Origin: Octopus sinensis
Taxonomy: Eukaryota
Length of the DNA: 64,000 bases
Direction: 5' to 3'
Assembly (NCBI RefSeq): GCF_006345805.1
Contig: NC_042999.1
Span: 52,080,001-52,144,000 of the forward strand
Part shown: one piece after another, positions 21,481 through 23,185 of the stretch
How positions within the stretch are numbered: the first letter of the stretch is position 1
Layout: each line of letters opens with the position of its first letter
The notes under the pieces: generated by a model
What the model saw: the letters and a program-made list of their open reading frames with translations, nothing else
Databases searched by the model: none
Told to the model about the DNA's origin: nothing
Made by a program: the position numbers and the translations under genes

Positions 21481-22327
21481 GTTCTGTACGATGTCTTGTC
21501 TTAGACGTTCATTCAAATAGTGTTGCTTGATCGGCTCTTTCTCTGAAGTAAAGCTTAAACCATACATGTATTTGATTCAAGGCGACATATGTACTGATTT
21601 TTTCGTAAGTTACGGTTTTTTCAAATTTCCATCTTGCTGAATTCTCCTCTAAAAATCGTTATGCCACTTTCAATGACTCTATTCCATCATGTATTTCTCC
21701 TCTTTCATACCTGCATGTTTTAAAAACCTTCTGCAGTAAACATAAACTTTACTTACATAGCCCCGAGGAAGCTATAAAATATCACGGAAGTACTTAGCTC
21801 CGAGTACAAGAGTACAATACTCCTCATAGAAGAAACAGCTGTAAGCTAATGGAAGTGATCATGTAATTCTTGATCTTTTATCATTCATTGATTTACACAC
21901 ACACACACACATATGTATGTATGTATATATATATATATAGCGTCCAATAACACTATACTTGTTCCACGTCCTCGCGTTGTTGTGTTTTCTCTTTGTGTTT
22001 TCATGTTTGGATTAACTTTACATATATTTATATATATATATATATATATATATATATATATATATATATATATATATATATATATATATATATATATTTA
22101 AATATATATATATATATATATATATATATATATATATATATATATATAATAATAATAATAATAAATATTAGGGAATGAATCCAAAATTACAGGGAAAAAT
22201 TTAGGGTTAAATCCAATCTTATAGTAAAATATTATATAATATAATTCGAGACAAAACCACTATTTTAAAACCAAACATGGAAAGACTTAATCAATACATA
22301 AAATTTTAATATAAATTAAATAAACCG

Positions 22328-22371
22328 CCACTACAAATGTTTCATGTCTGTTACCGACAATCTTCAGGTGG
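22328..22371 (-). ncRNA. Minimal type I hammerhead ribozyme motif
   Basis: CCAC-CUGAAGA-U-UGUC-GGUAACA-GACA-U-GAAAC-AUUU-GUA-GUGG: conserved core, stem I CCAC/GUGG, stem II UGUC/GACA. Confidence 0.7.
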
Positions 22372-22688
22372 ATTTTCGATCTAAAAATAGCAATATTTTA
22401 AAATAATTTAAAATAATAAAACAATAAAATTATCAATGAAAGAATGTAAAAAAATAAAAATATAATCTATATATAATCTATATATAATCTATATATAATC
22501 AATATATAATCTAAAATAATCTAAAATAAACCCTATAAACAATTGAATATAAATATGAGAACTTTTATAATAGGTTTTTATATTCAATTGTTTATAGGGT
22601 TTATTTTAGATTATTTTAGATTATATATTGATTATATATAGATTATATTTTAATTTTTTTACATTTTTGCTATTTTTAGATCGAAAAT

Positions 22689-22732
22689 CCACCTGAAGAT
22701 TGTCGGTAGCAGACATGAAACATTTGTAGTGG
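22689..22732 (+). ncRNA. Minimal type I hammerhead ribozyme motif
   Basis: Same as 22328-22371 except one loop II base (GGUAGCA). Confidence 0.7.
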
Positions 22733-23185
22733 CGGTTTATTTAATTTATATTAAAATTTTATGTATTAAAATTTTATGTATTGATTAAGTCTTTCCTTGT
22801 TTGGTTTTAAAATAGTGGTTTTGTCTCGAATTATATTTTATATATATATATATATATATATATATATATATATATATATATATATATATATATATATATA
22901 TATATATATATATATATATATATATATATATATATGAATCACGTAGATATACATACATGCATATTTACACGCAGAAGATGCACACATACACATATATACA
23001 CTTAGAACTATAGATACAATATACATTCCCATCACGCAACCTACGCATAATTAAATGTAAGAATACTTAAAACAACAAACGTCTTTACTGCCTGAAGGAT
23101 TTCCAAATGACAGCTTTATATTGTCCTTCAACGTAATCTATGTGTAACATTTTTAATAAGCCAATTTTGGAGTTATACATTTTTA

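What the first reader, a model, noticed from the sequence alone, without database searches (positions are those of the whole stretch)
22238..22837. 600-bp palindrome carrying twin, oppositely oriented hammerhead ribozymes
Seen: long inverted arms each contain an intact CUGAAGA/GAAA core, stems I and II and a GUA cleavage triplet; the two copies differ only in loop II. There is no ORF, and the element sits among (TA)n tracts. Known: minimal hammerheads with a very short stem III are typical of Penelope pseudo-LTRs and generally cleave as dimers. Inference: a non-autonomous fold-back element whose transcript from either strand holds one ribozyme plus its antisense, so hairpin formation would compete with self-cleavage and could yield siRNAs.
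Basis: partly seen in the sequence, partly recalled or inferred. Interest (0 to 1): 0.7.

Follow-up and report, generated by a model that had tools for sequence, protein, structure and literature searches.

The report
Twice-copied Penelope retroelement leader insertion
The palindrome is two back-to-back stumps of a Penelope-type jumping gene, each carrying that gene's predicted ribozyme; it likely arose when one unspliced RNA was copied twice during a single insertion, so it is a useful record of how these elements copy themselves but likely does nothing itself.

Summary
The palindrome and both hammerhead motifs are real. It is not a fold-back element of its own. Each arm is the ribozyme-bearing end (pLTR) of a young Hydra-clade Penelope-like retroelement family in G000. 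The arms are joined head to head over a 4-nt overlap found nowhere else in the genome and sit in (TA)n. This layout is published (PMC8557442; PMC4209133).

The family adds mechanism. 112 of 117 head-to-head pairs have exactly one tailed arm, and either arm can be the shorter. Arms never mix spliced and unspliced forms (0 of 61) and share variants (80 versus 9.8 shuffled). Most junction-spanning copies lost a 1.3-kb intron (236 versus 69 matches), often with a cap-like G. This favours one sense RNA primed twice over fold-back or antisense templating. The window's copy is the intron-retaining type.

On either strand the antisense arm is made first, so the ribozyme is predicted to be masked. Cleavage, expression and siRNAs are untested. 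The scan reached the same reading earlier on other DNA of this genome.

The parts
22020..22160 (.). Left (TA)n/(TAA)n target microsatellite
   Evidence: Sequence. 223 of 236 family arms are followed by (TA)4 within 40 nt.
22161..22237 (-). Family 'tail' (exon-2 positions ~+148 to +224), present on this arm only; inferred distal reverse-transcription start
   Evidence: 112 of 117 pairs have one tail and one short end.
22161..22553 (-). Left arm: tailed, 5'-truncated pLTR copy reaching 185 nt into the intron
   Evidence: 90-95% identical to the best family copies; alignment to a long unit.
22328..22371 (-). Hammerhead motif, left copy (type I, U10.1.U11.1, loop II variant); predicted cut after 22332
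22381..22389 (-). Retained intron 3' splice site, left arm
   Evidence: Exact match to the unspliced-junction pattern; intron defined.
22550..22553 (.). Head-to-head junction with a 4-nt (TAAA) overlap, unique in G000
22554..22576 (+). Unpaired 23-nt spacer: extra intron sequence belonging to the untailed arm
22550..22837 (+). Right arm: untailed, 5'-truncated pLTR copy reaching 212 nt into the intron, ending near exon-2 +148; two internal deletions and a 15-nt duplication
22671..22679 (+). Retained intron 3' splice site, right arm
22689..22732 (+). Hammerhead motif, right copy (family majority sequence); predicted cut after 22728
   Evidence: 108 exact copies in G000 and 0 for the reversed control.
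22838..22935 (.). Right (TA)n target microsatellite
   Evidence: Sequence.

Best explanation
The feature is one insertion of a Hydra-clade Penelope-like retroelement made of two truncated, intron-retaining copies of its ribozyme-bearing leader joined head to head, likely produced when the element's enzyme cut a (TA)n site and copied one unspliced sense RNA twice, once from each cut strand. Shown: the family identity, the one-tail/one-short rule, the intron, and arm concordance. Inferred: one DNA end primes at the distal start (giving the tail) and the other about 75 nt upstream (no tail); both cDNAs run towards the RNA 5' end and stop early; their 3' ends pair over a short self-complementary overlap (TAAA here) and are repaired into a palindrome. 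The insertion lacks the promoter and ORF, so it is likely a dead by-product, and its ribozymes would be masked by their own antisense if read through.
For: Family: 1974 first-look candidates, 40 scored, best copies 89-95% identical. Tandem copies continue into an RT and C-terminal nuclease ORF with the Hydra motifs KWK (RWK in homologs), DKT, CxCX5C, CxxC and CxH (clade definition). U10.1.U11.1 occurs in 14 of 26 Hydra rows of PMC8557442 File S2. Architecture: 112 of 117 pairs have one tail and one short end. Among pairs truncated within exon 2, the tailed arm is the truncated one in 21 and the untailed in 27. The central base of spliced palindromes comes from either arm, 9 versus 8. One template: spliced/spliced 44, unspliced/unspliced 17, mixed 0 of 61, with 24.5 expected if independent; variants shared within pairs 80 versus shuffled mean 9.8, max 31; the same variant haplotype occurs in both spliced and unspliced pairs (L158 versus L180, L186). 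Sense template: a GT-AG intron of ~1.3 kb (23 of 23 donors GTATGT) is precisely absent in 236 exact matches versus 69 retaining it; a non-templated G sits before the initiator-like start in 17 of 21 non-C cases; 0 of 16 promoter-containing copies are spliced. In vitro precedent: the anole element extends both target strands and has two internal start sites that bound the tail (PMC11167929).
Against: All evidence is genomic; no intermediate was observed. The loci were pulled by best BLAST hits and exact patterns, so they are not a random sample. Arm concordance could also come from one source element being active per cell, or from later gene conversion between arms. The window's own arms share no private exon-2 variant (0 shared, 3 differing), so for this locus the one-RNA step rests on the family rule and on both arms being unspliced. 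104 unshared differences remain across pairs. Some asymmetric pairs could be later deletions. Independent reads across this junction were not obtained. Pfam does not recognise the family's RT or GIY-YIG: no family hit, and one homolog hits GIY-YIG at E 0.0057, below cut-off.
Confidence: 0.78

Rival explanations
1. Same family and geometry, but the two arms come from two separate RNA-protein particles (for example a dimer, each subunit with its own RNA) whose cDNAs are joined.
For: A dimer is predicted for the anole protein (PMC11167929). Either arm can be longer and either can supply the central base. Haplotype sharing would follow if one source copy is active per cell.
Against: No mixed spliced/unspliced pair in 61, although the same subfamilies make both RNA types. 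In L242 both arms carry the same unusual exon junction. The one-tail rule (112 of 117) needs an extra assumption.
Confidence: 0.12
2. Fold-back self-priming: one cDNA (or an antisense RNA, as proposed in PMC3846280) turns back on itself and copies itself.
For: Arms share variants and splice state. The junctions have short self-complementary overlaps, and exon 1 holds an imperfect palindrome where many spliced pairs join.
Against: An untailed first strand cannot template a tail, and a tailed first strand cannot give a longer untailed arm, yet that is the case here and in 21 pairs. The centre base follows the untailed arm in 9 of 17. Precisely spliced, G-capped arms cannot come from an antisense template.
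Confidence: 0.05
3. One reading: a self-propagating non-autonomous fold-back element whose hairpin regulates its ribozyme and yields siRNAs.
For: A predicted hairpin of about -350 kcal/mol with an uninterrupted 78-bp helix would be a dsRNA substrate if transcribed. Palindromic insertions are common in the family.
Against: The junction occurs once in G000. Other intron-retaining palindromes have other junctions. The promoter and exon 1 are ~1.1 kb beyond the arms' 5' ends. No host exon was found near it among 145 of 231 open frames scanned. The ribozyme is predicted fully masked on both strands.
Confidence: 0.04
4. Assembly or library fold-back artefact.
For: AT-rich palindromes beside (TA)n are error-prone. 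No independent reads across this junction were obtained.
Against: The arms differ by three indels and substitutions. Only one arm has the tail. The junction overlap is family-templated on both sides, and 112 other loci follow the same rule.
Confidence: 0.01

Closest known systems
Hydra clade of C-terminal EN+ Penelope-like elements (PMC8557442; section 11, passages, and supplement part 2 read)
   Same: Protein motifs, (TA)n targets, a pLTR hammerhead often with U10.1.U11.1. Penelope-13_HM is listed with a 5'-truncated inverted copy and a hammerhead on each strand.
   Different: A different family from the published Hydra-1_oBim (its hammerhead sequence differs). The tandem unit is ~5.4-6.2 kb with a long 3' region and a 1.3-kb leader intron, against <3 kb. 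Spliced genomic copies were not described in the parts I read.
Opposite-strand dual minimal hammerheads of truncated PLEs (PMC4209133; parts 1-2 of 4 read)
   Same: The paper reports dual min-HHRs ~100-700 bp apart on opposite strands; here they are 317 bp apart. Weak helix III, predicted dimer dependence.
   Different: Its consensus has a highly conserved G10.1-C11.1; this motif has U.U. Its tested motifs cleaved poorly; this one is untested.
PAc (Poseidon) of Anolis, internal initiation (PMC11167929; parts 1-2 of 4 read)
   Same: Two internal RT start sites bounding the tail; both target strands extended; uncleaved RNA is the main template (196 of 234 arms here span the cut site, with no excess of truncations at it: 2 versus 2.3 expected).
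   Different: Different clade. The tail here is ~75 nt and lies upstream of the ORF start. The paper does not show two cDNAs from one RNA or palindrome formation in the parts read.
Twin priming of LINE-1 (recalled; search listing only)
   Same: Two target-strand primers on one RNA give an inversion joined by microhomology.
   Different: L1 twin priming inverts two different parts of the RNA; here both primers would copy the same stretch, giving a palindrome. That needs strand displacement (inferred).
Animal non-LTR retrozymes (bioRxiv 10.64898/2026.07.22.740005; part 1 of 5 read)
   Same: Non-coding, type I hammerhead, PLE-derived.
   Different: Retrozymes are head-to-tail tandem units that amplify as units; this is a single head-to-head product.

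Membership tests
Hydra-clade PLE | Single ORF with RT followed by a C-terminal GIY-YIG-type nuclease | tested here: met
   Family ORFs (frameshifted in the copies seen) align along 408 homologs including RT core and a C-terminal nuclease region. Pfam gives no hit above cut-off, so the basis is motif and alignment.
Hydra-clade PLE | RWK and DKT motifs | tested here: met
   KWK in the N-terminal frame, RW[K/R] in homologs; DKT present.
Hydra-clade PLE | CxCX5C linker; CxxC and CxH around the conserved E and N | tested here: met
   CTC...C linker, CYLC and CRH seen in L032:5153-6079.
Hydra-clade PLE | Insertion into (TA)n | tested here: met
   223 of 236 arms.
Hydra-clade PLE | Placement with named Hydra elements in an RT tree | not tested
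   No named reference sequences were fetched; no tree was built.
EN+ PLE insertion architecture | Inverted 5'-truncated copy joined at the 5' end; tail at one end only | tested here: met
   described in PMC8557442 Fig. 2 legend.
EN+ PLE insertion architecture | Target-site duplication | tested here: inconclusive
   Both flanks are (TA)n, so a duplication cannot be read.
Type I hammerhead ribozyme | CUGANGA/GAAA/NUH core with helices I-III | tested here: met
   The hammerhead fold scores -3.9 versus an MFE of -5.8 kcal/mol for the 44-mer.
Type I hammerhead ribozyme | G10.1-C11.1 pair | tested here: not met
   U.U here, A.G in a subfamily. U.U is a known natural variant (PMC3088659 passage) and common in Hydra.
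Type I hammerhead ribozyme | Rfam model match | tested here: not met
   0 matches at E<=10.
Type I hammerhead ribozyme | Self-cleavage | not testable with these tools
   Needs an assay. The helix III dimer is weaker here (-2.9) than in the palindromic variant of 39 arms (-6.4 kcal/mol).
Non-autonomous fold-back element / MITE / retrozyme | Multiple copies of the whole unit with the same junction | tested here: not met
   1 match in G000.

The most novel reading that the evidence does not exclude
Penelope-like elements integrate by priming one sense RNA twice, once from each cut target strand at two fixed internal starts, and this explains their inverted repeats, one-sided tail and intron retention together. 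Spliced, capped mRNA is used freely but yields only ~260-nt promoterless stumps, because copying starts near its 5' end. Only unspliced read-through RNA can yield promoter- and ORF-bearing copies. No antisense template is needed.
Probability: 0.55. Interest if true: 0.7.

Novelty: new member of a known kind. Interest (0 to 1): 0.45.

Why it matters
The locus itself is probably inert. Its family bears on an open question: PMC8557442 calls the significance of PLE intron retention unknown, and PMC3846280 proposed self-priming on an antisense template to explain head-to-head repeats and kept introns. Here head-to-head pairs come in spliced (G-capped) and unspliced forms that never mix. That contradicts an antisense template for this family and gives a concrete, testable model for the existing in vitro system. 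A side effect is many long hairpin-forming inserts in the genome, possible dsRNA substrates where host transcription crosses them (untested).

Tried and rejected
Rfam: no hammerhead match; the window hits are microsatellite matches to miRNA models. Pfam and PDB sequence searches of the family ORF: no RT or GIY-YIG hit above cut-off. Sequencing runs: no RNA holder listed, which says nothing on expression; read-level support for the junction and for splicing was not obtained. The idea that the short palindromes are a separate subfamily with a different head was rejected once that head turned out to be exon 1. The idea that ribozyme-cleaved RNA is the template found no support: 2 truncations within 3 nt of the cut versus 2.3 expected. 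A host gene around the palindrome was not found: 145 of 231 open frames scanned gave only RT fragments and one sulfotransferase piece 23 kb away; short exons would be missed. Literature searches for spliced PLE copies or double priming and for U11.1 hammerheads listed no paper whose title or abstract start reports this. I saw listings only for those; Arkhipova 2003 and other subscription papers and bioRxiv supplements were not seen.

Full report
Observation. Local alignment of the left side against the reverse complement of the right gives long identical blocks broken by indels of about 15, 47 and 22 nt, with a 23-nt unpaired centre. A generic hammerhead descriptor found 2 hits in the whole window, one per arm, differing by one loop II base. 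Rfam does not score them. No frame of 90 aa or more overlaps the feature.

What the arms are. A search of G000 (2.7 Gb) with 22160-22840 gave 1974 candidates, of which 40 were scored; the best 30 matches were 85-95% identical apart from the window itself. In a tandem array (L031, L032, L154) the same sequence runs on into an ORF with RT motifs and a C-terminal nuclease region. It has 408 homologs at E<=0.001 among 7995 scored candidates. The motifs KWK/RWK, DKT, CxCX5C, CxxC and CxH are those that define the Hydra clade of Penelope-like elements (PMC8557442 section 11). The U10.1.U11.1 mismatch, which departs from the usual G-C pair, is found in 14 of 26 Hydra rows of that paper's File S2 and is a known natural variant (PMC3088659 passage). 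The published octopus family Hydra-1_oBim has a different hammerhead, so this is another family. Earlier scan notes call the genome octopus; I did not establish its origin.

Anatomy of this insertion. Numbering from the first base of exon 2, the left arm covers -185 to +224 on the - strand and the right arm -212 to about +148 on the + strand. They meet over a 4-nt overlap at 22550-22553 that both arms can template. So the insertion is ~680 bp, only the left arm has the tail, and both 3' ends point outwards into (TA)n. The junction occurs once in G000 with up to one mismatch. An inverted 5'-truncated copy with a one-sided tail is the typical arrangement in PMC8557442, and PMC4209133 already notes dual minimal hammerheads ~100-700 bp apart on opposite strands.

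The intron. An exact 44-nt ribozyme pattern had 108 matches. Many were short palindromes with a different 5' head. That head is exon 1: all 23 matches not followed by A continue with GTATGT, and 17 of the 23 show the family 3' splice site 1249-1314 nt downstream within the fetched DNA. The spliced junction has 236 exact matches and the unspliced one 69 (matches are arms, not loci). Spliced copies stop at an initiator-like TCACT. The base before its A is C in all 23 templates, but among 39 spliced copies reaching it, it is C in 18, G in 17, A in 2 and T in 2, as expected if the cap is read as G (inference). All 16 copies that include the upstream promoter stretch keep the intron. The window's arms both keep the intron's 3' end.

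Family rule. From 247 fetched loci, 131 adjacent head-to-head arm pairs were found. I dropped 19 locus ids as overlapping duplicates or multi-arm tangles, leaving 118 pairs, one counted twice, so 117. Of these, 112 have one tailed and one short end. Where one arm is truncated inside exon 2 it is the tailed arm in 21 and the untailed in 27. Of 61 pairs with both splice states readable, 44 are spliced/spliced, 17 unspliced/unspliced and 0 mixed, against 24.5 expected; one of the 17 (L242) has, on inspection, exon 1 joined 9 nt upstream in both arms. Arms share 80 variants and differ at 104, against shuffled means of 9.8 and 257 (118 pairs, 2000 shuffles). In the commonest spliced centres the middle base follows the untailed arm in 9 and the tailed arm in 8. 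The sample was drawn by best hits and exact patterns and is not random.

Mechanism. Shown: family, geometry, intron, one-tail rule, concordance. Inferred: the nuclease cuts both strands of (TA)n, each 3' end primes on the same sense RNA at one of two fixed internal starts, both cDNAs run towards the 5' end, and their 3' ends pair through a short self-complementary overlap. The anole protein extends both strands and has two start sites bounding the tail (PMC11167929). Fold-back of one cDNA cannot give an untailed arm longer than the tailed one, as in the window. An antisense template (PMC3846280 discussion) cannot give spliced, G-capped arms. Two separate RNAs remain possible but should sometimes mix splice states, since the same variant haplotype occurs in spliced and unspliced pairs. 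Against my reading: the window's arms share no private exon-2 variant, concordance could partly reflect gene conversion or a single active source, and no reads were laid across the junction.

The ribozyme. In head-to-head geometry the antisense arm precedes the ribozyme on both strands. Folding predicts 44 of 44 (+ strand) and 43 of 44 (- strand) ribozyme bases paired long-range, already in a transcript ending just after the motif. The two motifs are on opposite strands and cannot form the dimer in one RNA, and the window's helix III is the weaker variant (-2.9 versus -6.4 kcal/mol). 196 of 234 family arms span the cut site, with no excess of ends there, in line with uncleaved RNA being the template. 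Both arms lack exon 1 and the promoter, and no host exon was found nearby. A role as a switch or siRNA source is therefore possible only through read-through transcription and has no evidence.

Earlier scan notes. I had the spliced-copy and one-RNA reading before the look-up (notes, statement). Notes on other loci of this genome reach the same reading; they are not independent support. They gave me two leads that I then tested: the Hydra clade and the cap signature. No note lies near this window.

Verdict. A real, ordinary PLE insertion type and a new family member of a known clade. The value lies in the family-level evidence on how these elements integrate and why working copies keep their intron. 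My searches (listings only) found no paper reporting spliced genomic PLE stumps or double priming, but subscription papers and bioRxiv supplements were not visible.

Noticed in passing
window 21939-22030: An ~90-nt piece of another repeat family sits in the same (TA)n tract just left of the palindrome (492 candidates, 40 scored, 95-100% identical); possibly the end of another microsatellite-targeting element.
   Followed up: partly
window ~45970-47055 (-): Sulfotransferase-like exon (Sulfotransfer_2, E 9e-9 on 46389-46685) broken by stops and frameshifts; pseudogene or assembly errors.
   Followed up: partly
window 23763-24125, 33901-35494, 36162-37511: Fragments of non-LTR retrotransposon RTs (RVT_1, zf-RVT).
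   Followed up: no
L242 (G000:C13:68184959-68185053): Palindrome in which both arms join exon 1 nine bases upstream of the usual 3' splice site.
   Followed up: partly
L123 (G000:C905:10200-12300): Four consecutive spliced palindromes in alternating orientation, with several tailed arms; tandem amplification or assembly problem.
   Followed up: no
L082 (G000:C15:7018021-7018343): Spliced palindrome with ~180 nt of unrelated sequence captured at its centre.
   Followed up: no
L158, L177, L180, L186, L189, L203, L226: Subfamily whose ribozyme has A.G in place of U.U at 10.1-11.1 together with a perfectly palindromic helix III; a natural two-sided change between non-canonical pairs.
   Followed up: partly
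L032:5950-6200; L034, L162: Long asparagine-rich (AAT)n insert inside the family ORF after the RT core, like the N-rich inserts described for Adineta Penelope (PMC3846280 passages).
   Followed up: no
L032:2740-5150 versus L154: The middle unit of the tandem array lacks exon 1 and has a rearranged 3' region (5.4 versus 6.2 kb unit).
   Followed up: no
L040:3-1166: RT of a different Penelope-type family lies ~2.7 kb from a family palindrome.
   Followed up: no
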